The notes under the pieces: model-generated
Databases searched by the model: none
What the model saw: only the letters and a program-made list of their open reading frames with translations
Told to the model about the DNA's origin: nothing
Translations under genes and position numbers: made by a program
Assembly (NCBI GenBank): GCA_004563595.2
Contig: CP042461.1
Coordinates: 180,001-212,000 of the forward strand
DNA: 32,000 nt
Direction: 5' to 3'
Source: Candidatus Saccharimonadota bacterium
GTDB taxonomy: Bacteria; Patescibacteriota; Gracilibacteria; BD1-5; UBA6164
Shown: positions 5,014 to 29,612 of the stretch, piece by piece
Position numbering within the stretch: position 1 is the first letter of the stretch
How the letters are laid out: each line of letters starts with the position of its first letter

Positions 5014-7863
5014 TTATTTTATAGGGGTTAAAAAGTTTCAAAGTTCTGAATAATGAAAAATAAAATCAATTATTTTAATATCATTCACGTTAAAATCTAT
5101 AATTTGTCCTTTTTGCATAGTTATTCATATATGTTTGTCACCATAGTTCGTTTTAAATTCAATGGTTTCATTTTCAGGTTTGTAGCTAATGCTTATTTCT
5201 TCCTTACCAAGTGTATTACTAGTGGTATTGATAATATGCTCGATTGCTTCAATATTGTTTAAGATGCTTGATAATGTTTCTTTCAGTGACTCAAGAGGGA
5301 CATCTCATACAATGTATACAGAATTTCATGAAAGTAAATATGTATTTTGTTCTTTTGCCTTTAGATCTAATAGTTTAAAATCTATATCTGAGAAACTATG
5401 AGAAGATGCATATGTATAATCAGAATTGAGGACTCAGCTATATTTTATGGTTTTTCAATTTTTATTAATGTTCATTCAAAACTGAACTCAAGATATATAA
5501 ATATCATAATCAGTACTATTACTTTCCTGAGTCATACGAATATTATTGTATATAATAGAGAAGTAATCATCTATTTTTGTAAAATCTCAGTTGGTTCAGA
5601 GTAACTTGTTTCTTTTAAAATATTTTGTAAATTTATCCTCCGTTCATATATCGGGTTCATTACTACCTCCTATTATGGGCTGCGGTTGTTTCTTAGATTC
5701 TATAATAAAATTATTGAGAAAAAACTTTTTAAAGTCATATTTATCTTTTTCAGAACTCTGAGCTGCTTTGTATTTTTCTTCTAGGGACTCTTTCATATCA
5801 TTCAGATCATAAGATCATTTTTTTTCTTCCCATTCACCTTTTTCATTGATAAATGTAATGGTATTTATTTTATTTCAGTCATATGGATGAAGGAGAAAAG
5901 AAAATGTTTCCTTTCCTATATTTAAATTATTTATTTTATAACATTCATATTCTCAAAAAATATTTCAGGTTGTATCTTCAGTTTCTTCAATCTCAGGATT
6001 TTGACAGTAGTTATAATTTTTTAATTCAATATGTGTATTCATAAGTAAAAGTCATTGGAAGTTTGAGAGAAAAATGAGCGCTTTATCTTTACTGAGTTTT
6101 TCTGCATCAGTTTTCCCATTATCTAGAATAGGGTCGTTCCCTCCAAACCTAGAATCGTATTTTATAGTATATGCCTTATAGTCACTGAGAGCTAGGAAAT
6201 ATTCATCAAATATTTTTTGCAATTCTATATATTCATTTCTGAGAGTTTTTTCGTTATTTTTTTCAGGATCGAGAATATTTTTATTGGTATTATAAAAGGA
6301 TATAAGTTTTATAATATTTTTTTCTAACAGTATATAGTTCTCGTAAGTATTGTTTTGTAAACTTACAGTTTTTAATAATCATTCCTTGGTTCTTTCCTTT
6401 TCAAAGAAATTGTTTCTTATTATATACGTGAAGTTTCGTAAAATTTTAGAATTGATAAGAAGTCAAGTATGTAAAATAGTAAGGTTATTTGTATCATAAT
6501 AGGTTTCGCTAATGTTTACATAATTGTTAAAGAAAAGTATGAGTTCCTTTGCATTTGTATCTTTTAAGTCAGTTATAAGGATTTGTTCCAAGAAGAAGAG
6601 AAGAGAACTATTTGGTTTCTTATTTTCATCTTCATCATACTTTTTTATAAATGTATTGAGCTGGCTATATAAGTTATTTGATTGCTTAAAGTCATATGAC
6701 AAGAAAGTATTTTTGAGAGAGAGGATAGAAGGAGATATTGAGGATGCTTTTTTCTTGTTTAATTGTAAATATAAATGAGAAAAATTTAGGAGATGAGTGT
6801 TATCTTCATTTGTTGTGAATAATACATTTTTATAATAAAAATATATTATTCACAACATTTTTTTATATTCAGCTGTATTATTTTTTTTCAGATCGTTCAT
6901 AGTCTCTGAAATAAAATTGATAGATTCATTTACTTCTTCTTTTTTGTTTATAATTTCATGTAAGCTTTTGAGTATAAGGTTTTCATTATATATTTGTTTT
7001 TTTTCATTATTTAAAAATAATTCATAATATTTTTTTATAAATATTTCTCCTGGAAATGGTGAAAAAATAGCATCAGATAAATATTGTATTTCTTGAGAAC
7101 TTTTTTGGTATTCCAGTAATATATAATGAAAAGTGTCTTTTAAAAAATTATACTCAACCTCGTTAGAAGAAAATGATTGAAGAAAAAGAGGGTTTATATT
7201 GTTTTCTCATGTAATAAGAGGTTCATTAAAATATGTCAGAGGGAAGCTTTGAGAGATTTTGAATAAGTCAGCATTTAGTAAAAATCTATTCCATTTTGGT
7301 TTAATAGTAATATATGTATGAGGGTACAAATCAAGAGATGAAGCTGGAGTATTTGTTTCTGTATTGATAAGTGAAAGTTGTAATTTTGTGTTGATTGAAA
7401 AAATAACAACTTTTTTTGGGTTGAATGAATTCACAAGGAAGATTCATGGTCATGAGTTTTTTATCTGGAATCAACCTCAAGAAATTATGTATTTTTTGTG
7501 TAATTCATTCAAGTGGAGTAAATAGATTCCAGATTTTAATTTTAAATGAGTTATAGCTCAAGTTAATGTTTTTGTATAATCTCAACTGGAGTATATAGTA
7601 TCTGCGAGTGAAAGCTTCTCTGCAAGAATATTTATATTTTTTGATGAAGTTGTAATTTTTTTTAAAGATCAAGTTTGATCTAGAACTTGAAGGTCATAGA
7701 GTCATATCTCTATATCTTGTGAACTTATTTCTTCAATTTTAGAATAGTCTGAGGAAATAAAGCTCAGAGATATAAGACCTGATCAGAGGATGATAACAAT
7801 AATTACAAATATGATTTTTGATAAAAAATTCACTGCTTGATATATTAAAATGTAATAGTACAT
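5014..7863 (-). CDS. large hypothetical protein, 949 aa, N-terminal TM anchor, Asn/Lys/Ile-rich, no recognisable domain
   Basis: A single frame is open from ATG 7863 to TAA 5014 once TGA is read as Gly. Track fragments 6463..6702(-) and 7207..7434(-) are in this same frame. The N-terminus is MYYYILIYQAVNFLSKIIFVIIVIILGSGLISL. Confidence 0.75.
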
Positions 7864-10380: not shown

Positions 10381-12552
10381 ATGAAAAAAATAATAAAAAA
10401 TAGTTTTTGATTCACGCTTGTAGAATTAATAGTAGTAATTACAATAATTGCGATTTTATGAACAATAGCATTTATATCACTACAGTGATATAGTAAAAAC
10501 GCAAGAGATTCTGTGAGAATCGCAGATGTACAATCTTTGGTAAAAAGTTTAAGTCTATTTGAGATAAAAACTTGAATTTTTCCTGAACCATCAAACTGAA
10601 CTTCTGTAAGTTTTTCGTGATGAGAAATATGGACACAATGAACTATTTGAGATAGTGTAATAGTCAATATTGGTCAATTAAGTAAAAAAGTGCTTGATCC
10701 ATCAACGGAATCTGAATATACATACTCAAGGTTGAACACAAAGAAGGAATACCAAATTGCAGCAGTGATTGAAGGTGATCTATGAATAAACTCATCACCT
10801 CATTTTTCTTCAGTAACTCATGCTGCATGAACAAATCCTTGAATTGCTTATGTGAAATGAAACTATAATTGAATGTTAGCAAAAGTTCAAACATGAGCAG
10901 TAACATATGTGTTAGCTGTTCCAACTATTATATCATGAGATATATCAGTTACTGATATTATTAATTTACAGCAATCAAATAAGCTTGTTTATAATGGAAA
11001 AAATAACCTTCCAGCAAGTTATGAGTCTTCTAAGTTTAAAGTCGATGGGGGATGATTTGTTTTTAATCCTTCAGATATAGTAGTCTATATTTGATCTACA
11101 AGTACTCTAACAGCAGTTGATAATCAACTCAGTTTAATGAGTAATACTCAAAATGTATATAGCGGAACTGACGTGTCAGGCTTAGATAGTCAGATTGATA
11201 AACTCGTTGATATAAGTGTTGATCTGAATAGTCCTACAGATGAAGCAAAAGAGTTTGCGGGTTATATAGTTAAAAATAGTGTAAACCCTGGGGTTGAAAT
11301 AAATATTAGTACTTCTTCTCAAGAATCTGTTATATGTTGAGGATGAGACTATAATAGTGCATATAATGTAAATTTATGATACTTTAATGGAAGAACTATT
11401 CCAAATAGAGCAGCGTTTGTCGCATTAAAACCAGATGGTTCTATTGTTGCTTGGTGAGATGATTCGTATGGATGATCATGAGCACTTGCACCAAGTGGTA
11501 GTGGTTATGAAAAAATATATTCATCTGAAAAAGCATTTGCAGCCTTGAAATCAGATGGAACAATTTCTGTATGGTGAGATGCTGATAATGGTTGAACCGG
11601 AGGTCCGATTGATAACTGATATGTAGATATCTCTTCAACATTAAATGCCTTTGCCGCGTTAAAAGATGATGGAACAATTTCTGTATGGTGACCGTCTTGA
11701 ACGAGTGCTTGAGATCAAGCAAATGCTCCAAGTACATGAGATTATACGAAAATATATGCAGGTAAATATACGTTTTCAGCCTTAAAAGATGATGGGACTG
11801 TATACGCATGGTGAAGTTACGTTACAAATTGACCAGTAGCCGGAGTTTGATATACTTCCATTTCTGCTAGTCAATCAGCCTTTGCAGGATTACATGAAGA
11901 TGGGAGTATATCAACGTGGTGAGAAGGAGGCTATGGTTGAATTTGATGACCTATAGATAATTGATATATATCAATAGCTTCAACACAGAGAGCATTTGCT
12001 GCTTTAAAATCTGATGGGAGCTTATCAGCTTGGTGAGCTGATTCATATGGATGAACAGGAACTTTGGTTGGTCCATTTACTTCTGTTTCTGCAACAGAAA
12101 ATGCATTTGCTGCATTGAAAACAGATGGAAGTATTGAAACATGGTGAGGAAGTGGGAACTGATGAACTGGAGGACCGGTATGAACATGATATACAAAAAT
12201 ATATGCAAATAATTATGGTTTTGCTGCCTTAAAAAATGATGGAACTATATATGCATGGTGAAGTAGTAGTTATGGATGAATATGAGATGTAGCATGAACA
12301 TGATATGTTAAAATATTTGGGAATAATTATGGTTTTGTTGCATTAAGGTCTGATGGAACTGTATATGGATGGGGAAGTGGAGGAAGCGGATATCCTGTAG
12401 ACAGCTGATACATAAATATCATGGCTACAGCAAATGCTTTTGCTGCAATAAAGGATGATGGAAGTATGAGCTTATGGGGATCTCAATATTATTGAGCAAC
12501 AGGAGGGCCCAATGATTCATGATATACCTCACTTAACTGAACGTGCAAGTAA
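10381..12552 (+). CDS. type IV pilin-like protein (A-type N-module) with C-terminal 10-repeat RCC1-like beta-propeller, 723 aa
   Basis: N-terminus MKKIIKNSFG|FTLVELIVVITIIAILGTIAFISLQGYSKNARDS is a prepilin cleavage/methylation motif. The C-terminus has 10 repeats of AFAALKxDGSIxxWG. Track ORF 11137..11340(+) is in frame. Length is a multiple of 3 from ATG to TAA. Confidence 0.88.
11410..12549 (+). repeat. 10 tandem coding repeats of about 38 aa (consensus GY..I.S...AFAALK.DGSI..WG....GG.G)
   Basis: The periodic gcatttgc(t/a)gc..taaaa..gatgg....tggtga is visible directly in the nucleotides. The WG dipeptide is mostly TGG-TGA. Confidence 0.85.
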
Positions 12553-12582: not shown

Positions 12583-14145
12583 ATGAAAAAAATAATAAAA
12601 AATAGACTTTGATTTACATTAGTAGAACTTATTGTTGTTATTACCATTTTAGCAATTCTTGGTACTATTGCATTTATAAGTTTGCAATGATATAGTAAGG
12701 ATGCAAGAGATAGTAAAAGAATAAGCGACATAGCTAATATTGAAATATCTTTAGAGTTATTTTCGCTTGCAACATGAAAATATCCACTTCCGGATAATCC
12801 ACAAACTGTTATATATAGTTGATCTATAGTATTATGGAATCAATGAACTGTTTGATGAAATGTAGCAACAAACTTGTCAAAAAATTTGTCAGAAATACCA
12901 TTAGATCCATTATATGGAACTGAGTATGTATATTCAACACTTGAAAATAGAAAAGAATATGAATTAATGAGTGTATATGAGTGAGGTAATATAGGAGGAA
13001 ACTGATTATTAGATAACACGTATGCAGCTACGAGTCCAACAGTAAAAATAGTTGGTACTTATAATGGGCTTTTTATTCATACTTCAAATTATATAATACC
13101 ATCTCCAAGTATTATAACATCAGAAACACTCCCACTTGCGTTTGATGCACAGTCAATACAGTCACAAGTGGTAACAGGATGAACGAATGTACCAAATATA
13201 TGAACAAGCAAAGTACAAGTATCAACAGGGGCATTATCAAATATTACACTGTCAGCTTATATATGAAGTGCAGATGCAAACTCATATAAATATGAATTAT
13301 TATCTCTATATAAAACAATACAATGAGCGTATACAGGTTCAAGTTTAATAGGAAATTGAATATATAAAGCGTTGTTTGATCAAACAAGCAATGATGAAAA
13401 GGTAGTTTTTATAGATTCAGTGTTAAATATTACCAGAAGCTCACCAATAAATATAATTACATGGTCAGAGTTAGACTTAAATTGTGATGCAGATGATATC
13501 CCTATTTGAGATCAAGTATGGGCATGATGTAATTCTACATTATGACTCTGATTAGAATGGGGGCAACTCGACTGAGATTTATGAACAAATAATTATAATT
13601 GAGGATGAAGTTTTTGTTTTAATTATGAATGAGGTGCAGCGACATGTATTAAATGAGATATAACAATGGCATCAAATACAAAAGCAAATACTTGGTATAC
13701 TGGAACAAATTCAAACTGAGATACTGAGTTTGCGAGTATATGGTGAAAATCTTATACATGGGAAAATTCAGGTAGCGCATGTGCTCCGGGCTTTCATGTC
13801 CCAACAGATGCTGAACTAGAAATTCTTGAAACAACACTAAAATGAGGAGTTAATTGTAGAAATTCAACAAATTGAGAATTGTGTGCTTGATTAGGGTGGG
13901 CATGACATAACGCTCAATCTACAACTAATAACATGGCTCAAGCCCTTAAAATTCCTTTATCAGTTAATCGTCTTACGAACTTAATTGATTCTTACAATAG
14001 AGGAAATTATGCACATCTATGGTCCTCAACTGAAGGCTCTAGTGGTACTGCGTATGGGAGATCGCTAAAATGGGATACTACGACAATTAACCGTCTCAAT
14101 TGGAGTACAGATTATGCTTTTAATGTCCGTTGTATACATGATTAA
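12583..14145 (+). CDS. type IV pilin-like protein (B-type N-module) with C-terminal FISUMP (Fibrobacter succinogenes major paralogous) domain, 520 aa
   Basis: N-terminus MKKIIKNRLG|FTLVELIVVITILAILGTIAFISLQGYSKDARDS. The C-terminus reads IGDQVWAGCNS..YTWENSGSACAPGFHVPTDAELEILE..HLWSSTE..AFNVRCIHD*, the TIGR02145-type pattern. I checked every codon and found no in-frame TAA/TAG. It lies 30 nt after gene 1, so it is probably co-transcribed. Confidence 0.85.
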
Positions 14146-14238: not shown

Positions 14239-16440
14239 ATGAAAAAATTAAAGAAAAACAGATTTTGATTCACCCTTGTAGAATTAATAGTAGTGATTAC
14301 TATCCTTGCTATCTTGTGAACTATCGCATTTATATCACTTCAATGATATAGTAAAAGTGCAAGAGATTCTGTAAGAATATCAGACGTTGAAAATATAGTA
14401 ACAAGTTTGACTCTTTATGAAGTACAAAAATGAGCGTTCCCTGTTCCATCAGATAATGTTGAAGTAACTTATTTGGGATGAGAAGTATGGACTCAATGAA
14501 CTATTGGAGACAGTGTACTTACGAACCTTGCTCAAATAAGTAATAAAATAGTAGATCCTTCAAGTGGATCAGAATATACTTATTCTAGATTGAATACAAA
14601 AAAAGAATACCAGGTAGCTGCGGTATTTGAGTGATGACTTGCTTTTGAAAGTGATAATAACATTCTTTCTTCAGCTCACGCAGCGTGAAATGTAGCATGA
14701 ACAGCGTACGTAAAATGAAACTATAATGGGATGTTAGCAAAAGTAAGTACATGATGAACATTGTATACTCTTGCTGTTCCGACTTTAATATCATGAGATA
14801 TAACAGTGACAAGTCTTACTGCATTACAAGCTGCAAATAAACTTGTGTACAAAGGTACTGCTAATTTGCCGGCAAGTTACGAATCTTCTAATTTTAGAGT
14901 TGAGGGAGGAGGTTTTGTATTTAATCCATCAGATATAGTAGTGTATACATGATCAATGAATACTCTATCAGATATTACAAACAGAGTTCAGTTAGTTGAG
15001 AGCTTACAAAATGTGTATGACGGTACAGATTTAGCAACCTTAAATCCAGATATTCAGACACTTGTGGACACAATAATTAATCCAGGATATGCTTCAGCAG
15101 AAGCAGAATTATTATCGAGTAATATAATTAAAAATAGTATTAATCCTAGTATAAATGTAAGCATAGCATCTGAAGCAACTTTTAGATGTGATGGAGGTGA
15201 TTATAATACAGCATATAATAATTATTGATGATATTATAGTGCATATACTATGCCTAATACAGGAGCTTTTGCAGCACTTAAAAGTGATGGTACTATATTT
15301 GCATGGTGAGATTCAAGTAAATGATGAACATGAGCACCGGTTGACGATTGATATAAAAAAATAGCATCTTCAGCTGAGTCTTTTGCAGCCTTAAAAGATG
15401 ATGGAAGCATTACTGTATGGTGAAATGGAGGTGCTGGATCATGAGCTTTGGCTCCTAGTGAGAGTTGATTCATCAAAATATCTTCAACATCAAACTCTTT
15501 TGCCGCATTAAAGGAAGATGGGACAATTTTTGTATGGTGATTACCATGAGCAAGTGCTGGAGATCAAGCAGAGGCTCCAACCGGTAGTGATTACAAGAAT
15601 ATATATGCGGCAAATTATACTTTTTCAGCTTTAAATAACGATGGAACAGTATATTCATGGTGAAGTTATGTTACTAATGGTCCTGTAGCTGGAGTATGAT
15701 ATACTTCTATATCTTCTAGCTCATCAGCATTTGCTTGATTAAAAAGTGATGGGACTATATTTGCATGGTGAGATGGAGGATATTGATGAATTTGAAATGT
15801 TACATGAACATGATATGTTTCAATTTCTTCAACTACGAGAGCATTTGCAGCCTTAAAAGATGATGGATCAATTTTTACATGGTGAGATGGAAGCTATTGA
15901 TGAACATGAAGTACTTCATGAGCTATATCAGGGACATGATATACTAAAATATTCTCTACACAGTGAGCATTTGCAGCTCTAAAGGATGATGGAAGTATTA
16001 CTGCGTGGTGAACAAGTGGATGGTGATGAGATAATACAGAAGTTCCAAGTTGAACATGATATATAAATATTTATTCGAATTCAAGCGCATTTGCAGCATT
16101 ACATGGTGATAATGAAACTATCTATGGTTGGGGCTTTGCTAGTACAGGGGGAGTATGAGCTGTCGCGGGGAGTTGATATACTAATGTTTATGCTGCTCAT
16201 TATTGATTTGCGGCATTAAAACCTGATGGAACCATAAAAGTATGGTGAAATATGGATTCAAATAAACCATCAGAATCAGAAACATGATTTACAAAAATAA
16301 TGTCAACAGAGAAAGCATTTGTGGCAATGAAGTCTGATGGAAGTATTTATGCTTGGTGAAATAGTGCAGATGGAGGTGATAATAATGATGCACCAAATGA
16401 TATATGATATGTGTCTATTAATTGAGTTTGTAACCAATAG
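14239..16440 (+). CDS. type IV pilin-like protein (A-type N-module) with C-terminal 10-repeat beta-propeller, 733 aa
   Basis: N-terminus MKKLKKNRFG|FTLVELIVVITILAILGTIAFISLQGYSKSARDS, followed by 10 AFAALKxDGSIxxWG repeats. Track ORF 14956..15228(+) is in frame. Confidence 0.88.
15265..16437 (+). repeat. 10 tandem coding repeats of about 38-42 aa (propeller blades) in pilin gene 3
   Basis: Same consensus as 11410-12549. Confidence 0.85.
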
Positions 16441-16636: not shown

Positions 16637-18811
16637 ATGAAAAAGTTAATGAAAAGAAGTTTTTGATTCACACTTGTAGAATTAATAGTAGTGATTACTA
16701 TTCTTGCTATCTTGTGAACTATAGCATTTATATCACTACAATGATATAGTAAAAATGCAAGAGATTCTGCCAGAATATCGGATATAGAAAATATCGTAAC
16801 TAGTTTCACTCTTTATGAAGTACAGAGATGATCTTTTCCCGTTCCATCAGATGGAGTAGAAATAACTTATTTAGGATGATCAGTATGGACTCAATGAACT
16901 ATTTGAGAAAGTGTTATTACCAATCTTTCTCAAATGAGTAAAAAACCAATAGATCCATTCAGTTCTTCTGAATATACCTATTCAAGACTCAATAGTAAAA
17001 AAGAATATCAAATTGCAGCAGTGTTAGAGTGATGACTTGCTTTTGAGAGTAATAATACTTTTTCTTCAGCACACGCTGCATGAAACTTAGCATGAACAGC
17101 ATATGTAAAATGAAACTATAACGGGATGTTAGCAAAGGTAAATACATGATGAATATTGTATACACTTGCTGTTCCAACTTTAATATCATGAGATATAACA
17201 GTGACAAGTCTTACTGCACTACAAGCTGCAAATAAACTTGTATATAAAGGTGCTGCTAACTTACCAGCAAGTTATGAATCATCAAACTTCAAAGTTGATG
17301 GAGGAGGGTTTGTGTTTAATCCATCAGATATTGTAGTATATACATGATCAATGGGTACATTATCTGATATTACAAATAGAGTTCAATTAGTTGAGGCTTT
17401 AAAAAATGTTTATATAGATACTGACGCCTCGGATTTAAGTCCAGATATTCAAACGCTTACTAGTACAGCTATTAATTCAGAATATGCTACGTCTGAGGCT
17501 GAATTATTAGCAAGTAATATAATTAAAAATAGTATCAACCCTAGTATTGATGTAACTATCGTATCAGAAACAAAATTTTTATGTAACGGAGCTGACCATA
17601 GTACAGCTTATAATGCAAATGGATGATTTTTTAACGTTTCAAATTTCCCGAACACGCAAGCATTTGCTGCTCTAAAGAACGATGGAAGTATCTCTGTTTG
17701 GTGAGATGATTCTTATGGTTGATCATGAGCACTTGCACCAAGTGATAACTGATATATAAAAGTAACTTCGAATGAGACAGCATTTGCTGCTTTAAAGGGA
17801 GATGGGACAATTACTGTATGGTGAAATGCAACGAATGGGTGATCTGGAGGTCCAAGTGGGGGCTGATTTGTAGATGTGTTTTCTTCAAGTGCAGCTTTTG
17901 CAGCTTTAAAAGATGATTGATCGATACAAGTATGGTGAGATGCTGGGCCATGAGTTCAAGAAGTAGCTTTGAGTGATACTGAATATACAAAAATATATTC
18001 ATCTAATTATTCATTTGCTGCTTTAAAAGAAGATGGGACTATATATGCATGGTGAAGTTATCCTGGAATTTGAGATGTTCCTGGGGTATCATATCTATCT
18101 GTTTCTGCAACTACCTCAGCTTTTGCTGGATTAAAATCGGATGGAAGTATTTATTCGTGGGGACTTTCTGGTCACTGATGATCATGAGCACCAGCAGCTA
18201 CTTGATATACATCAATTTCAGCGACTGAAAGAGCTTTTGCAGCATTAAATAGTGATGGAAGTATTTTTGTTTGGTGAGATGATAGTTATTGATGAACATG
18301 AGCTATAGACCCAAGTTGATATACAAATGTATATGCTAATTTTAGAGCTTTTGCGGCAACAAAAACGGATGGAAGTATTACCGTATGGTGAAGTAGTAGT
18401 AATTGATGAAGTTTAGGGTTCTCGGGTACGTGAACAATTAAAATTGCATCAAATCGTTATGCATTTGCTGCTCTAAACAGTAATGGAACTATATATTCTT
18501 GGTGAGCTTGAGGTAATGGATGAATTTGAAGTGTAACGGGAACATGATATGTAGATATATATTCTAGTGATAATGGATTTGCGGCTATGAAATCTGATGG
18601 GAGCATATATAGTTGGTGATGATCATCTTCATCTTGATACCCAGTTGATAGTTGATATACAAAGATATTTTCTACTGCATGAGCTTTTGCTGCAATGAAG
18701 TCAGATGGAAGTATAACAGCTTGGTGATCAAGTTGGTATTGAGGAACATGAGCTGAATGAATTCCCATAGATGATTGATACGTCTCAATTAATTGAGTAT
18801 GTCTTAATTAG
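16637..18811 (+). CDS. type IV pilin-like protein (A-type N-module) with C-terminal 10-repeat beta-propeller, 724 aa
   Basis: N-terminus MKKLMKRSFG|FTLVELIVVITILAILGTIAFISLQGYSKNARDS, followed by 10 repeats. Track ORF 17351..17626(+) is in frame. Confidence 0.88.
17660..18808 (+). repeat. 10 tandem coding repeats (propeller blades) in pilin gene 4
   Basis: Same consensus as 11410-12549. Confidence 0.85.
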
Positions 18812-19570: not shown

Positions 19571-22500
19571 ATGTTGAGAAAAGTTCTATTGAGCATATTG
19601 ATCGGTACTATCTTATTAAATTGAGGGCCTATTGTAAATGCGGCATGAGATGAGCCAAGTTATACAAAACTAACTGTGTTAGATTTACATACCTTCAATG
19701 AATATAGGTATAGAATTACTGATAAGTACTTTAATCTCAGAAACAAGTTTGAGATTGATGGAACTATAAATAGTAAAATTTCTGGAGAGATATTAGACCT
19801 TGCAAGGGAAGGGTACAACTATCTTCCGGATAATTTATCGAATAAAAACTTATATAATAAATTAAAAACATCTATAGAGAGAGGGAAAAAATTTCCAGAT
19901 AATGAATCAAATTATACAGCAATCGTTGTGGCTATTCAAAGCTATTTAGAAAAGGCAGATATTCAAAAAATTCAATGAAAAATTGAAACAGTAACAAAAG
20001 AATGAAATGCCCCTTTTTCTGCTACGTTAAGATGAAGAGTGAGTGATCCATCGGGAACAAAAATAGAGTCATATAACTACGTATGGTGGATTGATGTAGC
20101 ATGAAAGAGAAAAATTATATGAAAAAAGCCATCTATTAACTATATTTTTAAGGAAGAATGAAATTTTTCTGTATTTTTAGATGTTATTTCTAGTCACAAA
20201 AATACAAAATGATACACAGATGTGCTTCCTTTTAGATCAAGAGCTGATATTAAAGTAAAAGAAAAAATTGCATCAGTTATTATCAAAGTTAACTCTGATC
20301 GTTTAAGGCAAAAAGATGAATTAAAATTTACTCCAGACGAAGCAAGGTTTGGTTTACTTTTTGATGCTACCAGTTCAACCCCAGCGTCAGGAGGGAAATT
20401 TACAAATACATCATGGGATTTTTGAAATGGTTTGGAAAGGGAAAATTCATGAGATCCAAAAGTAGAAAGAGTTATATATGCAAAAGAGGGAGAATACACC
20501 GTTATATTGAAACTAAGAACAAATGAGAATAGAACTGCAGAGAGAAAGTTTATAGTTTCTATTCATGATCCTATTGCAACTATTAAAAGTTCTCAAGAAG
20601 ATTGATTCTTATGAGATAAGTTTACTTTTTCTGCAAAACCTTCATGAAATGATGATGATTTGAGCTACTCTTGGGAGATAGTTGATATAGAAAATGATAG
20701 TATTATTTTTAGAAAAACAGGGAGTTTATTTACCTATAGTTTTAAGGATAAGTGAAAATATAATGTTAAACTTAGAGTAACTGAGCCTTCGTGAGAAGAG
20801 GATATTGATACACAGATTATACATATTAATTCTCAAGCCCCGGTTGCTGATTTTAAAAATTCAAAACCATTTCCACATAAACCAAATACAGTTTTACTTG
20901 ATGCAACAAAGAGTTATGATCCAGATTTTTCTGATGATTGAAAGTTACAATTCTCATGGATTATTAATGGAGAAAGAAGAGTTTTAGATAGGCCAAACTT
21001 TAATGGTTCTATCTGATATTATACGTTTGATTCTATATGAGATCAAAGTGTTGTATTAGAGGTAGTTGATCCAGATAAAATACCATCTCAAAAAACAGAA
21101 AAAGTAAGGGTAGATTCTATTTTATCTGTTGATTTATTTGCTTTTCCAAGAGTAACTACTAGGGAAAATACTATTAGATTCGTTGCTCAATCCCCAGAAG
21201 CAAGATTTTATGAATGGGATTTTGGAGATGGAGAAAAAAAATGATCAAAGGAAGCAGAAATATCACACAAATATAAAAAAAGTTGAGTATTTACTGTAAA
21301 AATAAAGGTAATTGATAAAGAGGATAGAGAAAATACATTTCAAAAAAATGTATATATTTGAGAATCAAATAGTCCATTTGCATTTATAAATATTCAAAAC
21401 TGAGTGAGTCAGGAAGTGGCATATAAGCAGTGAGTATGTAATGGTGTATGAGCATATATTGTTGATAGAGTAAACATCACGAGGTTTTCGTGAGAAGAGA
21501 GTATTGATATTACTGGAAAAACTTCATGAATTTCATATTCGTGGAAGCTGTGAAGAGATCAGTATTTTTCATCAAGAGATTTTCCTCAAAAATTTGATGA
21601 ACTTGGTTGTGTTCCGTTGAAATTAACTGTAAAAAGTGATCAAAACTGAAGAACTCATAGTAGAACTGTATGGCTAAAAGTTGAAAATATCAAACCAACG
21701 TTATCATCCGTGAATGTACAAATTACAGATGAATCTACAGATCCTGTGATTGTAAAAGTAAGTGCTTTATGATCAAAAGATCTTGATGGAGTGATTCAAT
21801 CATACTTATGGTATTATTATACAGATATTGATTCTGAACCACAAGATTTTAGAGCAACTAAATCTTCAGCGACTACCTTTGTTTTACCAAAAATAACATG
21901 AAACTATTATTTTGTAGTGGTTATGAAAGATAATAATGAAGCAAGAGTCACCTCAGAAGAAGTAACGGGGTCAAAATATTTTGTAACACTTGCCTGAGAT
22001 AATATAAATACTCCTCTAGTAAAGTTAAGTGTGAATGACTCTTCTGTATCTATTTGAGATGAAGTCGTATTTACAGCAAAAGTTGAGAATATCCTCGGTC
22101 ATGATTTATCAAAAAAAGTAGAATATTCTTGGGACTTGGATGGAGATGGGTTTTATGAAAAAAAAGGTTCTCAAGCTACGATAACTCATAAATTTGAAAT
22201 CTCTTGAGAGTTACATCCAAAAGTAAAAGTAAAATACAAAGGCTTTAGTAGTACAAAAAATCTTACTGTAAATGTATCAAATATATTGAAACCAGATTTT
22301 TGATACATTTCAATTTGAAATAAATTCATTATTTTTGATAAGAGTATTTGAAAATATGATACAATTCAATGGAACTTAGGTGATGAAACAAAAGTTACAG
22401 ATAAGAATGTTTTCACTCATACATATGATGATGGGAAAGCATCTCATATGGTAGAATTAAAAATATCTGATGGGACAAAAGTAAAAACTATACAAATAAA

Positions 22501-25054
22501 AGTAACAAAAAATGTAAAGAATATTATTGAAGCAAAAAAGAAAGGACTTGTTTTATTCTCAAGCTCAGATATTTCTTCTGATGATGAACTTATATTAAAA
22601 AAAGCATCAGAAAAAGTATTTATATATTTAGGAGAGAGTAACCCTGATATATCAAACTATATTGCCGACTTTGATATTGAAAATGACTCAGACTTGAATT
22701 GAGGGAAAGATGATGATGAAGATAACAAGTCAGATGCAAGTTTTCGTTCATGAGACGCAGTTGAGATAAAATTAAATACAAATAAGCATCAAAAAGTTAG
22801 ATTGACTATAAAAGATAATTCATGATCTCTCGTAGAGAGTTATGACTTTATGATTGTGAAAGAATATATTGTAGAAGAAGAGATAGACCTGAGTAGTTTG
22901 AGTTTTGATTGAGTAACTGATGCAGAGTTATTAAAAATAGAAAAATTAAAGAGTTATATTTCTGATTTACCAAAGGGTGATAAACTAAAGGCATTAATGT
23001 ATGTTCAAAAACTTCAGGAAGAGTGGTTTGATGATACTGAAAAAACAAGAGTTATTCTTGAATTTGAATGATATATTTATGAAATAGATGCAAATAATGC
23101 AGAAGAAATAGTAAATGTTCTAGAGTCATTATTAATAGAGTGAGAAGAAGATAGAAGTGAAAGAAATATAACTTTTAATGCATTGAAGAACCTAATCCCT
23201 ACAAATATAAAATGTGGTGACCTAGGTGAAGCAACACCTGAAACTGATTCTAATACATGTTACACAGGATTAATAGAAAAATTAGAAACTATAAAAATAA
23301 ACAATAATATTGATGAGAATAGAGAGATAGCAAAAGGTATACTGAATGTTATCTGAGAAGATACAAGCATGACAGCAAAACAAAAAACTGATTTTAAGGC
23401 AATTTTAACAACGCTTGTATATGGCTGAGTTGATAATATTCCTGAACCAGTAAAGCAGGTTATTCAAGGTCCATGAGATGAAGAATGAAGTGATCTACTA
23501 TGATTATTAAAGTGGATACTTTTAGTTATTCTGTATATTATACTCGGGTTTATATGAATAATATTTGCATATTGGGTATACTATAAACTTATAAATAAAG
23601 ATGATAATGTATGATTTCAAGACTTTATTATAGAGAAAACTTCTTGAAAAAAAATACAAGATCCAGAACCTATGGATGATTCTTTAGATATTTTAAGTGA
23701 TCTATCAACTGATAAAGCGTGAGATGAAGCAGAGGAGTGAATGAAATGATCTGAAGAGGAATGAGAAGAAGAACAAATATGAGTTTCTCAGGTGGAAACG
23801 AAACCTACAGAAGCGAAAATAGTGGAACATAAACAAGAACAAAAAGTAGAAGCTCCAAAATGAGATGTTCCTGATTGGTTAAAAGGGAGTGTTTCTGATG
23901 ATGATTTTAAAAAAGAAGTAACTCAAATGAAAACGAAGATTACAGAAACAAAGTGAGTAGAACAAAAACAAGACCAAAAAATAGAAGTTACAAAGTGAGG
24001 TGTTCCTGATTGGTTAAAGTGAAGTTTTACTGAAGATGATACAATAAAGGATATAAAGAAAAAAGATGAAATTATTAAAACTGATGAGAAAATAAAAACA
24101 ACTCAAGTGGAAACCAAGGTTGTAGAAACAAAATCAGTGGAGCAAAAGCAAGAACAAAAAGTGGAACCTGCAAAATGAGATGTTCCTGATTGGTTAAGAG
24201 GTAGTTTTACTGAAGATGATAAAAGTAAGGATATAAAGAAAAAAAATATTAATAAAGGGAACCAACCAAAAAACAGAGAAGAAAATAAAGGTGAAAAGAC
24301 TATAGTTACTCCTAAAAAGGAGAATGTTTGAACTGATGAAAAGTTAAAAATTTTATCTAATGATGATTTAGATAAAATAACAAAAATAGATGAAGATGAT
24401 AATATTCCTGATTGGTTAAAGGGGAGTTTTGATGAAGAGAAGAAACAAAATGAAATACCTGCTGTAGATAAGAAACAAGAAAAAATAACTGTTGTAAGTA
24501 AAGAAATAGAGAGGAAACCAGAGAAGAAAGTAGATGTAAAAGAAAAAACTTTAAAGAAAGAAGAAAAGAAAGAGCTGAAAAAAGATGAACTTAAAAAAGA
24601 TATACCTAAGAAAACTGAGCAAAAAAAATCTGGTACACCACAAATCACAGTAAAAAAAGATATAACAAAATGAGTAGAAGAGAAAGGAAACATTAAGTCT
24701 GAAAAAGCAGTGATAGCACAGAGTAAAACAATTGTAAAAAAAGAAGAGACAGTGAAAAAAACTCAAATGACAAAAAATATAAAAGAAGAAGCCCTACAGG
24801 AAAAAAGTATAAAAGAAGTGAAACCTAAACCTAAACAGGAGAAAGTTAAGGAGGAAAAATCGAAACTAACTCCAGAAAAAAAAGGAGAAGCGAAACCAGA
24901 ACAAACGACTCCAGTGCTTAAAAAAGAGGAAGAAAAAAAGACAGAAACTAAAAAAGAACTTCTGAATAAAAAAGGTACAGAAAAGAAAAATGGTGAGTTA
25001 TGGGATGATGGTATGAAGATACCAGATTGGTTAAAAACAGAAGATGATAAATAA
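19571..25054 (+). CDS. giant surface protein, 1827 aa: signal peptide, about 8 PKD/Ig-like repeats, one TM helix, Lys/Glu-rich C-terminal tail with PDWLK motifs
   Basis: Signal peptide: MLRKVLLSILIGTILLNGGPIVNAA. PKD-type signatures: WDFGNG, YSWEIVD, FSWIING, YEWDFGDGE, YSWKLG, YSWDLDGDG, IQWNLGDE. The TM helix LLGLLKWILLVILYIILGFIGIIFAYWVYY lies at about 23497-23595. Track ORFs 19676, 20222, 22448 and 24710 (+) are all in this frame. Length is a multiple of 3. Confidence 0.85.
23861..24440 (+). repeat. coding repeats carrying the (G)DVPDWLKGSFxEDD motif; four copies here and a fifth at 25015-25054
   Basis: The string tgagatgttcctgattggttaa recurs at about 23861 and 24176. Variant copies lie at about 23996 and 24411. 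The first three share a preceding VEQKQ(E/D)QK(V/I)E segment. Confidence 0.8.
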
Positions 25055-25082
25055 AAAAAGCCTCAATTTTGAGGCTTTTTTT
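25054..25082. terminator. bidirectional terminator between the PKD gene and the inverted pilin gene
   Basis: aaaaaagcctc-aatttt-gaggctttttt. Confidence 0.7.
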
Positions 25083-25084
25083 AT

Positions 25085-26647
25085 TTATCTAATGTATAAA
25101 GATATTCTTTCTCATGCATAATTCCATACTGGAGATGTATCATTAAAATTAGCGTATAAATTTAAGGTGACATAATCATAATCATAAGCATTTCCATGAT
25201 TATAATATCAAGACCTTCCATTTCAAAATAATTTTTCCTTTGGTATAGAATTTCCAACATTATCTCAAGCTGAAGTCCAATTACTCATGTAATTTATTCA
25301 ATAAAAGTCCCAGTCATCAGATCAAGTAGGAGTATTGTCTCTATTCTCTTGCCAGAGTCAATGGTCATTATACCATCAAGCATCTCTATATATATTGATC
25401 CATTCATATTTTGAATTTATATTTGTAACATCTATTAATCAAGGGGTATATTGAACTCCATTCTCTTGAGCTTGTAGGAGTACATTTGATCAAATTATTA
25501 ATAATAATTCTTTAGTTCCGTCCGTGTAGTCTGTAATAGCTTTTGTGAAATCTGAATCTAAATCAAATCAGCTTCATGTATTACTAGAAATATCTAAAGT
25601 ACCTATTATATTTGTGGAATTATTTCAAATTAATTCCCACCCTCCTCAATTTGTAGTCATATTACAGTATACGCTAAATCAAGTTCAATTATCTTGTGGA
25701 TCAACTGTATATGTTCCATCTCAAGTTGAATCTCAATTGTTTAATATATCTTTACAACTTCATGGAAGTGTTTCTATGACTATCTCATTTGTATTACTTG
25801 GGGTACTATTATTCACTACAACCGAACCAGCAAATGCTATTTTTTCATCATCTGTAGTTTGAGCTAATAGTGTTTTGTAGATTCATTTATTTGCTAAGCT
25901 TGAACCTGTATAAGCTCACTTTAATACTTCATATACAGCCAACTTTTCTACTGTAGATGAGTCTCCATCGATAGATCAATTATATACAGATAATGATAAA
26001 CTGGATAATGCTCCTGTTGATACTGAAATTTTTGCAATTCACATATTTGGAATATTCGTTCCACCATTGGTTACTTGTGATTGTATAGAGTCTGAATCAA
26101 GCACTCATGGTAATGTATCTGCTGTTATAATACTGGGTGTTGGGATTATATAATTGGCTGTTTTGATGAAAAGTCAGTTATATGTTCCATCCATTCTTAC
26201 AGTTGTATTTGTTGCTGCATAGGTGGTATTTAATAGTCCATTACTTGATACATTACTTCATTCATATAAACTCATAAGCTCATATTCTTTTTTATTTTCA
26301 AGAGTAGAATATACATATTCTGTTCCATAGAGTGGATCAGTTGGTATTTTTGATAAATTCCTTGATAGGTTGGTTATAACTTGATTTCAGATCGTTCATT
26401 GATTCCATAGTGTAGATCAACTATATGTAACGTCTTGTGAATTATCTGGAAGTGGATATTTTCATGTTGCCAGAGAGAAAAGCTCCAGTGATATCTTGAT
26501 GTTATTTATATCACTTACTCTCGTACTATCTCTTGCATCTTCAGAGTATCATTGAAGACTTATAAAAGCTATGGTTCATAAAATAGCTAATATTGTAATT
26601 ACTACTATTAACTCAACCAGTGTAAAAGCTTGTTTGTGTGTGTTCAT
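25085..26647 (-). CDS. type IV pilin-like protein (B-type N-module) with C-terminal fibrinogen-like YCxxxxxGGGW domain, 520 aa
   Basis: The minus-strand translation starts MNTHKQA|FTLVELIVVITILAILGTIAFISLQGYSEDARDS. The first 270 aa or so are clearly paralogous to 12583-14145. They are followed by SCKDILNNGDSTGDGTYTVDPQDNGTGFSVYCNMTTNGGGWELI. Length is a multiple of 3. Confidence 0.85.
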
Positions 26648-28493: not shown

Positions 28494-28569
28494 GGGTTAT
28501 TAGCTCAGTTGGTAGAGCAGCTCCCTTTTAAGGAGAAGGTCCTGGGTTCGAGCCCCGGATGACCCACCA
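28494..28569 (+). tRNA. tRNA-Lys (anticodon UUU), 76 nt with encoded CCA
   Basis: Manual cloverleaf: acceptor gggttat/atgaccc, D-arm gctc-agttggta-gagc, anticodon stem gctcc/ggaga with loop c-t-TTT-a-a. T-arm ctggg-ttcgagc-cccgg, then discriminator a and cca. Confidence 0.88.
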
Positions 28570-28760: not shown

Positions 28761-29294
28761 ATGAACTGAAGTTTTTTATCATTAGCTAACTTGATTAGTA
28801 AAAAAGATACCACTGTAAAAATGAGTCAATTTGATTTTTGTGAGCCTGCTTTTTTATTATGAATATTATCATTGTATAAATCAGGTATAGTTGAGGTTGA
28901 TTGTAATAATATAGATATTGAAAATTATTTAAATAGAACAGATTTTTTAAAACATATTTGAGTAGATACTCGTAGTATTAATAGACAACATTCAAATAAT
29001 TTAGTTGAGATAACCCCTATTAATAAAAATACTTCATGAGTAGATACAAATAAGATTACAAAAAAAATTGTAAGTAATATATGAATAACATATGAAGTAG
29101 AAAATAAATTTATTTATGGTACATTAGAGTGGATATTTTGGGAATTAATTGATAATAGTATTCAACATTCAAATGCTGATTTTGAAAAAGGGTGATCTTA
29201 TTTTATGGTTCAATCATATCCTAAGAGAGGAGAGTTACATATTTGTATTGTAGATAATTGAATATGAATAAAAGAATCCTTGATCAAGAGTTAG
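28761..29294 (+). CDS. GHKL/histidine-kinase-like ATPase fragment, 177 aa (N box and G1 box present; ends before any G2 box or ATP lid)
   Basis: FWELIDNSIQHSN is N-box-like and HICIVDNGIGIKESL is G1-box-like. The TAG stop comes 10 codons after G1. Confidence 0.55.
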
Positions 29295-29336
29295 ACGATA
29301 AAGAATATGATGATTTATTTGTATAAAAATAAAATT

Positions 29337-29612
29337 ATGAAAACAATAAAATTAATACATTTTTGAAAAAACCTTGTTTCAAGACCTATTGCTAAACAAG
29401 TTTTTCTAGCAGCAGAAGTAAATAAATTCGAAGTTATGTTTGATTGTAAGGGGGTAGAGTTTATGTCATCTTCTTTTGCAGATGAACTCTTTGCAAAATG
29501 AAAAGATAGGTTTTGAAAGAAATTTAAAATAACAAATTTAAATAATCAACCATTATTGGTAGAAATTATAAAGCAATCTTTTATCACTAGGGATAAATTT
29601 ACAGTAGTGTAA
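29337..29612 (+). CDS. STAS-like (DUF4325-type) small protein, 91 aa
   Basis: Reads MKTIKLIHFGKNLVSRPIAKQVF...VMFDCKGVEFMSSSFADELF. This is the pattern of DUF4325 proteins, which commonly sit next to GHKL ATPases. Confidence 0.55.

What the first reader, a model, noticed from the sequence alone, without database searches (positions are those of the whole stretch)
25085..25759. Fibrinogen-like YCxxxxxGGGW domain at the tip of a bacterial pilin
Residues about 297-340 of the minus-strand pilin read SCKDILNNGDSTGDGTYTVDPQDNGTGFSVYCNMTTNGGGWELI. This matches, almost position for position, the signature that opens animal fibrinogen-related domains: C..I...G...SG.Y.I.P......F.VYCDM.T.GGGWTV.

The remaining 180 aa or so are Trp/Tyr/Asn/Asp-rich and do not obviously follow the eukaryotic B/P subdomains. 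That fits the bacterial 'fibrinogen-like YCDxxxxGGGW' family better than a true full FReD. FReDs are carbohydrate and acetyl-group lectins. One fused to a pilin in an obligate episymbiont suggests glycan-targeted attachment.
Basis: partly seen in the sequence, partly recalled or inferred. Interest (0 to 1): 0.65.

Follow-up and report, generated by a model that had tools for sequence, protein, structure and literature searches.

The report
Fibrinogen-like binding head on a pilin

Summary
The minus-strand ORF 25085..26647 then encodes a 520-aa prepilin. Residues 297-340 match NCBIfam NF040941 (60.2 bits, cutoff 30) and Pfam PF00147 (32.8 bits, cutoff 22; profile positions 4-48 only).

The rest of the head (341-520) has no sequence match to animal fibrinogen-related domains (FReDs). 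It does belong to a small bacterial and phage subfamily with shared motifs: GT.E.RW, ENGT, FGNG.SGYY..G..YD and a terminal aromatic-hydrophobic-Arg. An AlphaFold2 model built on 56 relatives (pLDDT 82, pTM 0.84) finds only FReD-superfamily structures in the PDB (intelectin-1, fibrinogen, FIBCD1, ficolins; probability 1.0, TM 0.38-0.49).

Some subfamily members look like phage tail-fibre proteins. The window holds five modular pilins with three head types. The target shares 68% identity with its FISUMP-headed paralogue up to about residue 280-295.

Best reading: an adhesin head on a type IV pilin that binds a partner cell's surface, probably a glycan. The binding itself is inferred.

The pilin-plus-fibrinogen-C architecture is already listed in a 2021 survey and recurs in other Gracilibacteria. 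Verdict: a new member of a known kind.

The parts
25085..26647 (-). Whole gene: 520-aa modular prepilin, read with genetic code 25 (32 TGA = Gly codons, stop TAA)
   Evidence: The exact protein is in NCBI nr (P0003). A code-4 mistranslation of it is in JGI/IMG (P0002).
26627..26647 (-). Short class III leader MNTHKQA, with Ala rather than Gly at position -1 before FTLVE
   Evidence: Read directly from the sequence. The four other pilins in the window have G|FTLVE. Several Gracilibacteria relatives also have A|FTLVE.
26564..26638 (-). Prepilin N-terminal cleavage/methylation motif and hydrophobic alpha-1 helix (residues 4-28; F8, E12)
   Evidence: PF07963 at 29.7 bits (gathering score 21.2). 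TIGR02532 at 25 bits (cutoff 16.3).
26267..26551 (-). GspG/PulG-like pilin globular part (residues 33-127)
   Evidence: PF08334 T2SSG at 23 bits (gathering score 21). TIGR01710 at 46 bits, below its equivalog cutoff of 88.85.
25778..26266 (-). Carrier or stalk region (residues 128-290) with no family hit, shared with the FISUMP-headed paralogue
   Evidence: Residues 1-290 are 68% identical to the pilin at 12583-14145, and identity collapses at about residue 280-295. 820 database proteins match the carrier at E<=1e-10; every named hit among the 120 listed is from Gracilibacteria.
25088..25777 (-). C-terminal head (residues 291-520): divergent fibrinogen/intelectin-like domain
   Evidence: AlphaFold2 model on alignment A2: pLDDT 82.3, pTM 0.84. 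The top 50 Foldseek PDB matches are all FReD superfamily. Full-length relatives are P0045, P0093, P0139, P0158, P0159, P0160, P0099, P0106 and P0118.
25628..25759 (-). A-subdomain signature (residues 297-340): SCKDIL...YCNMTTNGGGWELI, with the protein's only two cysteines (C298, C328) at the canonical FReD disulfide positions
   Evidence: NF040941 at 60.2 bits; PF00147 profile positions 4-48. Cysteine positions.
25172..25228 (-). Subfamily signature FGNGRSGYYNHGNAYDYDY (residues 474-492); a candidate ligand or metal loop (inference)
   Evidence: G475, N476, G477, S479, Y481, Y482 and Y488 are invariant in the 7-sequence alignment A1. Model confidence rises again over this stretch.
25088..25105 (-). 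C-terminal strand ISLYIR ending the protein
   Evidence: Of 204 fetched proteins (nearly all bacterial or phage) whose last GGGW-type motif lies 120-240 residues from the C-terminus, 178 end within three residues of a hydrophobic-hydrophobic-basic triplet, mostly aromatic-hydrophobic-Arg/Lys; animal FReDs end ...MKLRP and intelectins ...LLFYR. It is modelled as strand E229-233 at pLDDT ~97.
25046..25089 (.). Hairpin GCCTCAAAATTGAGGC flanked by A and T runs, between the convergent 1827-aa gene and the pilin gene; probably a bidirectional terminator
   Evidence: 2 terminator-like sites found against 0.4 expected in shuffles.
12583..14145 (+). Paralogous pilin on the same carrier with a different head (FISUMP / Fib_succ_major)
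   Evidence: PF09603 at 51 bits; TIGR02145 at 44.8 bits. 68% carrier identity.
10381..12552 (+). Modular pilin with an RCC1-repeat (beta-propeller) head
   Evidence: PF13540 at 112.8 bits in 7 stretches.
14239..16440 (+). Modular pilin with an RCC1-repeat head
   Evidence: Sequence. Precomputed Pfam RCC1_2 hit, faint. Its carrier is 64-83% identical to those of the other two RCC1 pilins.
16637..18811 (+). Modular pilin with an RCC1-repeat head
   Evidence: Sequence. Precomputed Pfam RCC1_2 hit, faint. Carrier identity.

Best explanation
The gene encodes a modular type IV pilin of a Gracilibacterium (genetic code 25).

Anatomy, from N- to C-terminus:
- A short leader and the FTLVE hydrophobic helix, which direct processing by prepilin peptidase and insertion into a type IV filament.
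- A GspG-like pilin body plus a lineage-specific stalk of ~160 aa, which act as the carrier.
- A ~225-aa head grafted onto the carrier. It is a divergent but complete member of the fibrinogen-related/intelectin fold superfamily, in the bacterial 'YCDxxxxGGGW' branch.

The head keeps the disulfide-bonded A subdomain, the GGGW strand, a central sheet and the C-terminal strand. The ligand-side (P-like) region is replaced by a subfamily-specific, Trp/Tyr/Asn/Asp-rich region with an invariant FGNG.SGYY..G..YD loop.

Most likely function: a receptor-binding adhesin displayed on the pilus that binds a surface structure on another cell (host or prey), probably a glycan. The four other modular pilins nearby (RCC1 and FISUMP heads) would offer alternative specificities.

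Shown here: the reading frame and genetic code, pilin membership, family membership of the motif, the existence of the subfamily, the fold class, and head swapping on a shared carrier.

Inferred: incorporation into a pilus, tip position, the adhesin role and the glycan ligand.
For: Code and ORF.

Pilin signatures: PF07963, PF08334 and TIGR02532.

Head motif: NF040941 at 60.2 bits and PF00147 at 32.8 bits.

Full-length subfamily: nine relatives at 29-36% identity, giving 189-335 bits against the A1 profile.

Fold: the AlphaFold2 model has pLDDT 82.3 and pTM 0.84. The top 50 of 120 significant Foldseek PDB hits are all FReD superfamily; intelectin-1 is best at E 5e-6 with TM 0.47.

Receptor-binding context:
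- The N-termini of subfamily members P0099 and P0159 hit PHROG tail-fibre and tail-spike families.
- P0160 lies between a tail-fibre gene and baseplate/virion-structural genes.
- Viral fold matches are cyanophage fibrinogen-C and tail-fibre-like proteins.

Modularity: the carrier is 68% identical to the FISUMP pilin, with a sharp break at residue ~280-295. Homologous carriers elsewhere bear FISUMP, Laminin_G_3, DUF1566, TLD, RCC1 and GGGW heads.

Pilus context elsewhere: P0178, a pilin-Fibrinogen_C fusion, sits in a complete type IV pilus operon beside pilin-Laminin_G_3 fusions.

Long residence in this genome: 19 of 28 Gly codons in the head are TGA, against 58% in neighbouring genes.

Published background:
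- Modular pilins present adhesive or lectin modules on type IV pili (PMC8179133, PMC9934059).
- Type IV pili are reported as needed for host association in Saccharibacteria (cited in PMC11452946; see also PMC11623550).
- The source genome has PilB, PilC, PilD and PilT and 15 large GspG-like proteins (PMC6851277).
Against: No ligand, pilus incorporation or expression data exist for this protein.

The putative ligand-side region (residues ~427-486) is the least confident part of the model (pLDDT 51-74) and cannot be aligned to the Ca2+ or acetyl sites of FReDs or to the diol site of intelectin.

TM-scores to solved FReDs are only 0.38-0.49.

FReDs can also bind proteins (fibrin knobs, Tie2, integrins), so a glycan ligand is not guaranteed.

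Ficolins, intelectins and phage fibre tips work as trimers. A pilin-borne head would be monomeric unless several copies cluster.

Position -1 of the leader is Ala rather than the canonical Gly.

No pilus machinery gene lies in the window.
Confidence: 0.6

Rival explanations
1. The head binds a protein rather than a carbohydrate, for example a surface protein, S-layer or pilus of the partner cell. This is how fibrinogen, angiopoietin and tenascin FReDs work.
For: The FReD superfamily includes many protein-binding members among the structural matches: fibrinogen beta/gamma, angiopoietin, tenascin and FGL1. The canonical sugar-site residues cannot be identified. The sibling heads (RCC1 propellers) are typical protein-interaction modules.
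Against: The best structural matches are lectins: intelectin-1, XEEL and FIBCD1. The head is Trp/Tyr/Asn/Asp-rich, as sugar-binding sites often are. Relatives sit on phage fibres, which often target surface polysaccharides (general knowledge).
Confidence: 0.2
2. The pilin N-terminus serves only as an export signal and membrane anchor, or as a pseudopilus module. The head would then be displayed on the cell surface, or released, without being part of an extended retractile pilus.
For: The pilin body scores best against GspG-type (pseudopilin) models. The genome paper annotated 15 such large proteins as GspG. A bulky 225-aa head plus a 160-aa stalk would be hard to pack in a filament body (PMC8179133 discusses steric clashes). 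The leader has Ala at -1.
Against: GspG and type IV pilin models cross-hit routinely, and no hit reaches the equivalog cutoff (46 bits against 88.85). CPR cells lack an outer membrane, so a classical type II secretion system makes little sense. The related P0178 fusion lies in a pilus operon with PilB-, PilT-, PilC- and PilD-type genes.
Confidence: 0.12
3. The head is a recently captured phage receptor-binding module, or prophage remnant, with no role in the bacterium's own biology.
For: Subfamily members occur in phage-like tail modules. Cyanophage proteins are the viral fold matches.
Against: - The head is fused in frame to a lineage-typical pilin carrier.
- It uses TGA = Gly at 19 of 28 glycine codons, like the rest of the genome, including invariant G475.
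- Its GC content (29%) matches the genome's.
- Its neighbours are housekeeping genes, not phage genes.
- The best relatives are only 29-36% identical.
Confidence: 0.05

Closest known systems
Bacterial 'fibrinogen-like YCDxxxxGGGW domain-containing protein' (NCBIfam NF040941, GGGWT_bact)
   Same: The 46-residue signature matches end to end at 60.2 bits. Both cysteines are conserved. The domain is ~200-250 aa and ends in aromatic-hydrophobic-Arg, as in 178 of the 204 examined proteins with a C-terminal GGGW domain.
   Different: The NCBIfam model covers only the first 46 residues. The remaining ~180 aa define a narrower subfamily (GT.E.RW, ENGT, FGNG.SGYY..G..YD) with no full-length Pfam or NCBIfam model. 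Here the domain is grafted onto a pilin. Most family members are secreted proteins or giant multi-domain proteins with 2-15 tandem copies.
Animal fibrinogen-related domains (PF00147: fibrinogen beta/gamma, ficolins, FIBCD1, tachylectin 5A, angiopoietins)
   Same: - The same A-subdomain signature and disulfide.
- The same overall size (223 aa against 221).
- Foldseek probability 1.0.
- A C-terminal strand ending in a basic residue.
   Different: Sequence similarity stops at profile position ~48-57. TM-scores are only 0.38-0.47. The GFG, EFWLGN and NDND...GGWW motifs, the P-domain disulfide and the Ca2+ site are not recognisable.
Intelectins / X-type lectins (human ITLN1, Xenopus XEEL)
   Same: These are the best structural matches (E 5e-6, TM 0.47-0.49) and among the best profile matches. 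hhalign reaches 90 columns at probability 98.1. Intelectins likewise combine an FReD-like start with a divergent remainder and end in ...FYR.
   Different: Intelectins are ~280 aa with extra disulfides and a defined Ca2+/exocyclic-diol site. None of those residues can be aligned here.
Modular type IV pilins (Streptococcus sanguinis PilB with a vWA head, PilC with a ConA-like lectin head; the survey in Raynaud et al. 2021, PMC8179133)
   Same: The design is the same: a class III signal peptide and pilin module followed by a functional head that is not specific to pilus biology. The architectures IPR012902-IPR002181 (8 proteins) and IPR012902-IPR013545-IPR002181 (2 proteins) are already listed in that paper's Dataset S1, as are FISUMP and RCC1 heads. 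That IPR002181 denotes the fibrinogen C-terminal domain is from my own knowledge.
   Different: The listed pilin-fibrinogen fusions were never analysed. Here there is a long extra stalk, a code-25 host and a distinct head subfamily shared with phage fibre-like proteins.
Phage tail-fibre / receptor-binding proteins with fibrinogen-C-like tips (cyanophage S-CAM8, P-SSM4, metaG-MbCM1; metagenomic P0099, P0159, P0160)
   Same: P0099, P0159 and P0160 carry the same head subfamily (189-280 bits against the A1 profile). In P0099 and P0159 (374-377 aa) it follows an N-terminal fibre-like part that hits PHROG tail-fibre and tail-spike families; P0160 (274 aa) consists almost entirely of the head and lies within a phage tail gene module.
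   Different: The carrier is a pilin rather than a trimeric fibre shaft. Identity is only ~30%.

Membership tests
NCBIfam NF040941 (GGGWT_bact, fibrinogen-like YCDxxxxGGGW domain) | HMM score above the curated cutoff (30 bits) with full model coverage | tested here: met
   60.2 bits, E 1.4e-16, residues 297-340 matching model positions 1-46 of 46.
NCBIfam NF040941 (GGGWT_bact, fibrinogen-like YCDxxxxGGGW domain) | The YC(D/N)xxxxGGGW motif plus an upstream Cys (disulfide pair) | tested here: met
   The sequence reads S-C298-KDIL...VY-C328-NMTTNGGGW. These are the protein's only two cysteines. The disulfide itself is inferred.
Pfam PF00147 Fibrinogen_C (full fibrinogen-related domain) | Score above the gathering threshold | tested here: met
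   32.8 bits against a gathering score of 22.
Pfam PF00147 Fibrinogen_C (full fibrinogen-related domain) | Sequence match across the A, B and P subdomains (about 220 profile positions) | tested here: not met
   - Only profile positions 4-48 of 221 align.
- hhalign against animal FReDs aligns 57 columns.
- The subfamily profile reaches position 120 on FIBCD1 and 143 on fibrinogen gamma at best.
Pfam PF00147 Fibrinogen_C (full fibrinogen-related domain) | FReD three-dimensional fold | tested here: inconclusive
   The predicted model (pLDDT 82, pTM 0.84) retrieves only FReD-superfamily chains at probability 1.0. However, TM-scores are 0.38-0.49 and rmsd is 7-12 A. The core is shared, the P-like region is uncertain (pLDDT 51-74), and this is a prediction rather than a solved structure.
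Pfam PF00147 Fibrinogen_C (full fibrinogen-related domain) | P-subdomain Ca2+ site and acetyl/ligand pocket residues | not testable with these tools
Intelectin / X-type lectin | Intelectin-specific region with the Ca2+-coordinated exocyclic-diol site and its disulfides | tested here: not met
   hhalign aligns only 90 columns, with low confidence beyond ~55. The head has no cysteines beyond the A-subdomain pair and is ~50 aa shorter.
Type IV pilin / type IV filament subunit | Class III signal peptide: short basic leader, [G/A] at -1, F+1, E+5, and a ~20-residue hydrophobic helix | tested here: met
   The N-terminus reads MNTHKQA|FTLVELIVVITILAILGTIAF. PF07963 scores 29.7 bits (gathering score 21.2) and TIGR02532 scores 25 bits (cutoff 16.3). 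Position -1 is Ala, which is atypical but shared with close relatives.
Type IV pilin / type IV filament subunit | A cognate prepilin peptidase and assembly ATPase/platform in the genome | not tested
   None lies in the window. The genome paper reports PilD, PilB, PilC, PilT and GspE (PMC6851277). Assigning the window to that genome rests on the matching 1,343,103-bp contig length and the organism name on P0357.
Type IV pilin / type IV filament subunit | Incorporation into a filament | not testable with these tools
   This requires biochemistry or microscopy.
Modular pilin (sensu Raynaud et al. 2021) | A pilin module followed by an independent domain that is also found outside pilins | tested here: met
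   The head subfamily occurs without a pilin in Bacteroidota-like, phage-like and giant proteins. The same carrier bears a FISUMP head in the paralogue, with the break at residue ~280-295.

The most novel reading that the evidence does not exclude
Gracilibacteria may use their many large pilins as an interchangeable set of receptor-binding heads, drawn from the same domain pool that phages use for tail-fibre tips. This FGNG.SGYY fibrinogen-like head would be one of them. Pilus-mediated host or prey range would then be set and diversified by head swapping on a conserved carrier, analogous to phage tail-fibre cassette exchange.
Probability: 0.25. Interest if true: 0.65.

Novelty: new member of a known kind. 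Interest (0 to 1): 0.4.

Why it matters
How CPR bacteria recognise the cells they depend on is largely unknown. Gracilibacteria have no cultivated representative with a known host. This protein gives a concrete, expressible candidate for partner recognition: a ~225-aa head that could be tested on glycan arrays or against community members.

The finding also shows that a conserved pilin carrier bears several swapped heads in this lineage.

There is a practical lesson as well. In databases where these genomes were translated with code 4 (TGA = Trp), the GGGW signature becomes WGGW and similar, and the Pfam fibrinogen hit disappears. Such heads are therefore under-counted in CPR surveys.

Tried and rejected
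1. Table-11 ORF calling and translation: the gene is invisible or broken.

2. First homologue search with the head. The word-indexed search found only P0001, matching the motif alone. The GTDB genome scan found only a Bacteroidetes motif hit, L001. The metagenome scan found nothing. The head looked like an orphan until the exhaustive HMMER search.

This was solved by retrieving the exact database entry P0003.

4. Single-sequence AlphaFold2 of the full protein was useless (pLDDT 30) and was not used for any inference.

5. Sequence-level extension of FReD or intelectin homology into the B/P region:
   - Pfam: failed.
   - PDB phmmer and profile search: failed for nearly all chains; the profile reached position 120 on FIBCD1 and 143 on fibrinogen gamma.
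   - hhalign against small animal FReD and intelectin alignments: failed beyond ~60-90 columns.

6. Recent eukaryote-to-bacterium transfer: rejected. The nearest relatives are all bacterial or phage, 2084 representative clusters match, and animal FReDs match only the motif at about 50 bits.

7. Recent phage capture: rejected on codon usage and GC content.

8. Literature search for the YCDxxxxGGGW family: no paper found.

9. PF26696 (PTL_trimer) is listed in the precomputed annotation for some relatives, but it could not be reproduced with the local Pfam copy and was not pursued.
Full report
**1. The observation**

With the standard bacterial code, nothing is called on the minus strand at 25085-26647, and the frame carries 32 in-frame TGA codons. 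Reading TGA as glycine (table 25) gives one 520-aa ORF ending in TAA. It also restores full-length genes across the whole window: DnaJ, TruB, signal peptidase I and 2-oxoacid:ferredoxin oxidoreductase subunits.

TGA = Gly, rather than Trp, is supported within the gene itself. The first G of GGGW, and G475, which is invariant in the subfamily alignment, are both TGA.

The finding's coordinates correspond to residue 297 through the stop codon.

**2.

- NCBIfam NF040941 (GGGWT_bact) matches residues 297-340 end to end at 60.2 bits (cutoff 30; E 1.4e-16).
- Pfam PF00147 matches residues 297-342 at 32.8 bits (gathering score 22), but only profile positions 4-48 of 221.
- The N-terminus hits PF07963, TIGR02532 and the GspG-type pilin body PF08334.
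- phmmer against PDB sequences finds FIBCD1, intelectins, fibrinogen beta/gamma, tenascin, ficolins and angiopoietins, all over the motif only.

The protein has exactly two cysteines, C298 and C328. They sit at the positions of the FReD A-subdomain disulfide.

**3. The remaining 180 residues**

Early searches made the head look like an orphan. An exhaustive HMMER search of 1.84 billion cluster representatives gave 2084 hits at E<=1e-3.

Most hits match only the motif. Many are giant proteins with 2-15 copies spaced ~200-250 aa apart, so they hold tandem arrays of whole domains.

Nine proteins match over the full head: P0045, P0093, P0158, P0139, P0099, P0159, P0160, P0106 and P0118. They are 29-36% identical and score 189-335 bits against the subfamily profile.

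They share these motifs:
- GT(K/R)E.RW
- ENGT
- Y.D.GW.N.H
- (L/F)FGNG.SGYY..G..YD.D
- a terminal ...QLWVR (the target has ...ISLYIR)

I then examined 204 fetched proteins, nearly all bacterial or phage, whose last GGGW-type motif lies 120-240 residues from the C-terminus. Of these, 178 end within three residues of a hydrophobic-hydrophobic-basic triplet, mostly aromatic-hydrophobic-Arg/Lys. Animal FReDs end ...MKLRP and intelectins ...LLFYR.

From Cys298 to Arg520 is 223 aa, essentially the length of the Pfam FReD model (221). The head is therefore a complete but divergent domain, not a motif followed by unrelated sequence.

**4. Fold**

The single-sequence model was useless (pLDDT 30).

With a 56-sequence alignment of bacterial GGGW domains (A2), the head model reaches mean pLDDT 82.3 and pTM 0.84. 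Confidence is lower (51-74) for fragment residues 141-200, which are protein residues ~427-486.

Foldseek against the PDB gives 120 hits at E<=1e-3. The top 50 are all FReD superfamily: intelectin-1 (E 5e-6, TM 0.47), XEEL (TM 0.47-0.49), fibrinogen beta/gamma, FIBCD1, FGL1, tenascin, MFAP4, ficolins, tachylectin 5A and angiopoietin.

TM-scores of 0.38-0.49 mean that the core is shared and the rest has diverged.

Profile methods agree that sequence homology fades after the first B strand:
- The subfamily profile reaches position 120 on FIBCD1 and 143 on fibrinogen gamma.
- hhalign aligns 57 columns to animal FReDs (probability 98.6) and 90 to intelectins (probability 98.1).

**5. Context and what it suggests about function**

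*Source organism.* The window is identical to JGI contig 3300030037 Ga0239576_1000025 over the 11,389 bases compared. The exact protein is also in NCBI nr on a 1,343,103-bp contig. A homologous pilin on a contig of the same length is named 'Candidatus Gracilibacteria bacterium 28_42_T64'.

That is the closed 1.34-Mb genome of Sieber et al. 2019 (PMC6851277). The paper noted 15 large GspG-like proteins (mean 528 aa), PilB/C/D/T genes and an unknown host. It does not mention fibrinogen-like domains.

*Five modular pilins.* The window holds five modular pilins:
- Three have RCC1-repeat heads.
- One has a FISUMP head.
- One is the target.

The target and the FISUMP pilin are 68% identical over residues 1-~290. 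Identity collapses at ~280-295, which marks the graft point.

*The carrier family.* It has 820 database members at E<=1e-10; every named hit among the 120 listed is from Gracilibacteria. Heads recognisable in the precomputed annotation include FISUMP, Laminin_G_3, DUF1566, TLD and RCC1.

Six of the top 120 carrier homologues carry GGGW heads that are hidden by code-4 mistranslation (for example ...DWGWWTLV). Three of these, retranslated with code 25, hit NF040941 at 63-70 bits. One locus also encodes a 962-aa pilin with two such domains.

*Fusions outside this carrier.* Pilin-GGGW fusions also exist as P0176, P0178 and P0257. P0178 lies in a complete type IV pilus operon next to pilin-Laminin_G_3 fusions.

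*Phage relatives.* The target's head subfamily also occurs in phage-like proteins:
- The N-termini of P0099 and P0159 hit PHROG tail-fibre and tail-spike families.
- P0160 sits between a tail-fibre gene and baseplate/virion-structural genes.
- Viral fold matches are cyanophage fibrinogen-C and tail-fibre-like proteins.

These occurrences all point to a receptor-binding role at the end of a filamentous carrier.

**6. Mechanism proposed**

The steps below are inferred unless marked otherwise:
1. The prepilin peptidase cleaves after Ala7 and methylates Phe8.
2. The alpha-1 helix inserts the subunit into a type IV filament. Because of the bulky stalk and head, this is probably at or near the tip, as argued for other modular pilins (PMC8179133).
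3. The FReD/intelectin-like head binds a surface ligand on another cell, most likely a glycan.
4. PilT-driven retraction (PilT is reported in the genome) would then pull the cells together.

Weak points:
- The ligand is unknown.
- The putative binding region is the least confident part of the model.
- FReDs can bind proteins.
- The related lectins and phage fibre tips are trimeric.
- Position -1 is Ala, although this is shared with relatives.

**7. Origin**

Nothing supports recent transfer from eukaryotes. The closest relatives are bacterial or phage, and animal FReDs match only the motif at about 50 bits.

Recent capture from a standard-code donor is also unlikely. In the head, 19 of 28 glycine codons are TGA, against 58% in neighbouring genes, and its GC content is 29%.

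**8. Novelty**

The architecture is already catalogued. Dataset S1 of Raynaud et al. 2021 lists IPR012902-IPR002181 (8 proteins) and IPR012902-IPR013545-IPR002181 (2 proteins), without analysing them. That IPR002181 is the fibrinogen C-terminal domain entry is from my own knowledge.

NCBI's NF040941 would name this protein. No paper in the searchable library mentions the YCDxxxxGGGW family, so the family is functionally uncharacterised.

Three points add modestly to what is known:
- a delimited head subfamily shared with phage fibre-like proteins;
- clear head swapping on a Gracilibacteria carrier;
- the code-4 artefact that hides these domains.

Verdict: the finding is real and was correctly interpreted. 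It is a new member of a known kind and of moderate interest.

Noticed in passing
window 1-32000 (all genes): The whole window uses genetic code 25 (TGA = Gly). About 58% of glycine codons in 13 neighbouring genes are TGA. Table-11 ORF lists for this window are largely spurious antisense or out-of-frame ORFs.
   Followed up: yes
window 25085-26647, and database entry P0002: JGI/IMG holds this gene translated with TGA = Trp (code 4). In that form the Pfam fibrinogen hit is lost and only N_methyl remains. Six related Gracilibacteria pilins have their GGGW heads hidden in the same way.
   Followed up: yes
window 19571-25054 (+): A 1827-aa predicted surface protein lies convergent with the pilin. 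It has a signal peptide and weak PKD-domain hits, followed by a predicted transmembrane segment near residue 1340. Its Lys/Glu-rich C-terminal tail holds five copies of a (V/I)PDWLK(G) motif.
   Followed up: partly
window 10381-12552, 14239-16440, 16637-18811 (+): Three tandem pilins of 723-733 aa have RCC1-repeat (beta-propeller) heads. Their carriers are 64-83% identical to each other and about 40% identical to the target's carrier.
   Followed up: partly
window 12583-14145 (+): A 520-aa pilin has a FISUMP (Fibrobacter succinogenes major paralogous domain) head on a carrier 68% identical to the target's. The break in identity marks the domain graft point.
   Followed up: yes
window 26627-26647 (-): The leader peptide ends in Ala (KQA|FTLVE), not the near-universal Gly. 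The other four pilins in the window have Gly, while several Gracilibacteria relatives also have Ala.
   Followed up: partly
window 25046-25089: A 20-bp-stem hairpin with flanking A and T runs overlaps the stop codons of the two convergent genes. It is a probable bidirectional terminator.
   Followed up: partly
L011 6911-9799: A 962-aa Gracilibacteria pilin from a sediment metagenome carries two tandem GGGW-type domains plus a Cys-rich spacer. It lies directly upstream of a second pilin-GGGW gene.
   Followed up: partly
L006 543-12396: A metagenome scaffold holds a complete type IV pilus operon (PilB-, PilT-, PilC- and PilD-type genes). Within it are one pilin-Fibrinogen_C fusion and two pilin-Laminin_G_3 fusions, interrupted by an AbiEii/AAA defence-like pair.
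   Followed up: no
window 5014-7863 (-) and 28761-29612 (+): A 949-aa Asn/Lys-rich protein has no family hit. Separately, a pair of small genes (177 aa and 101 aa, the latter a weak DUF4325 hit) lies downstream of tRNA-Lys (28494-28569). Their functions are unknown.
   Followed up: no
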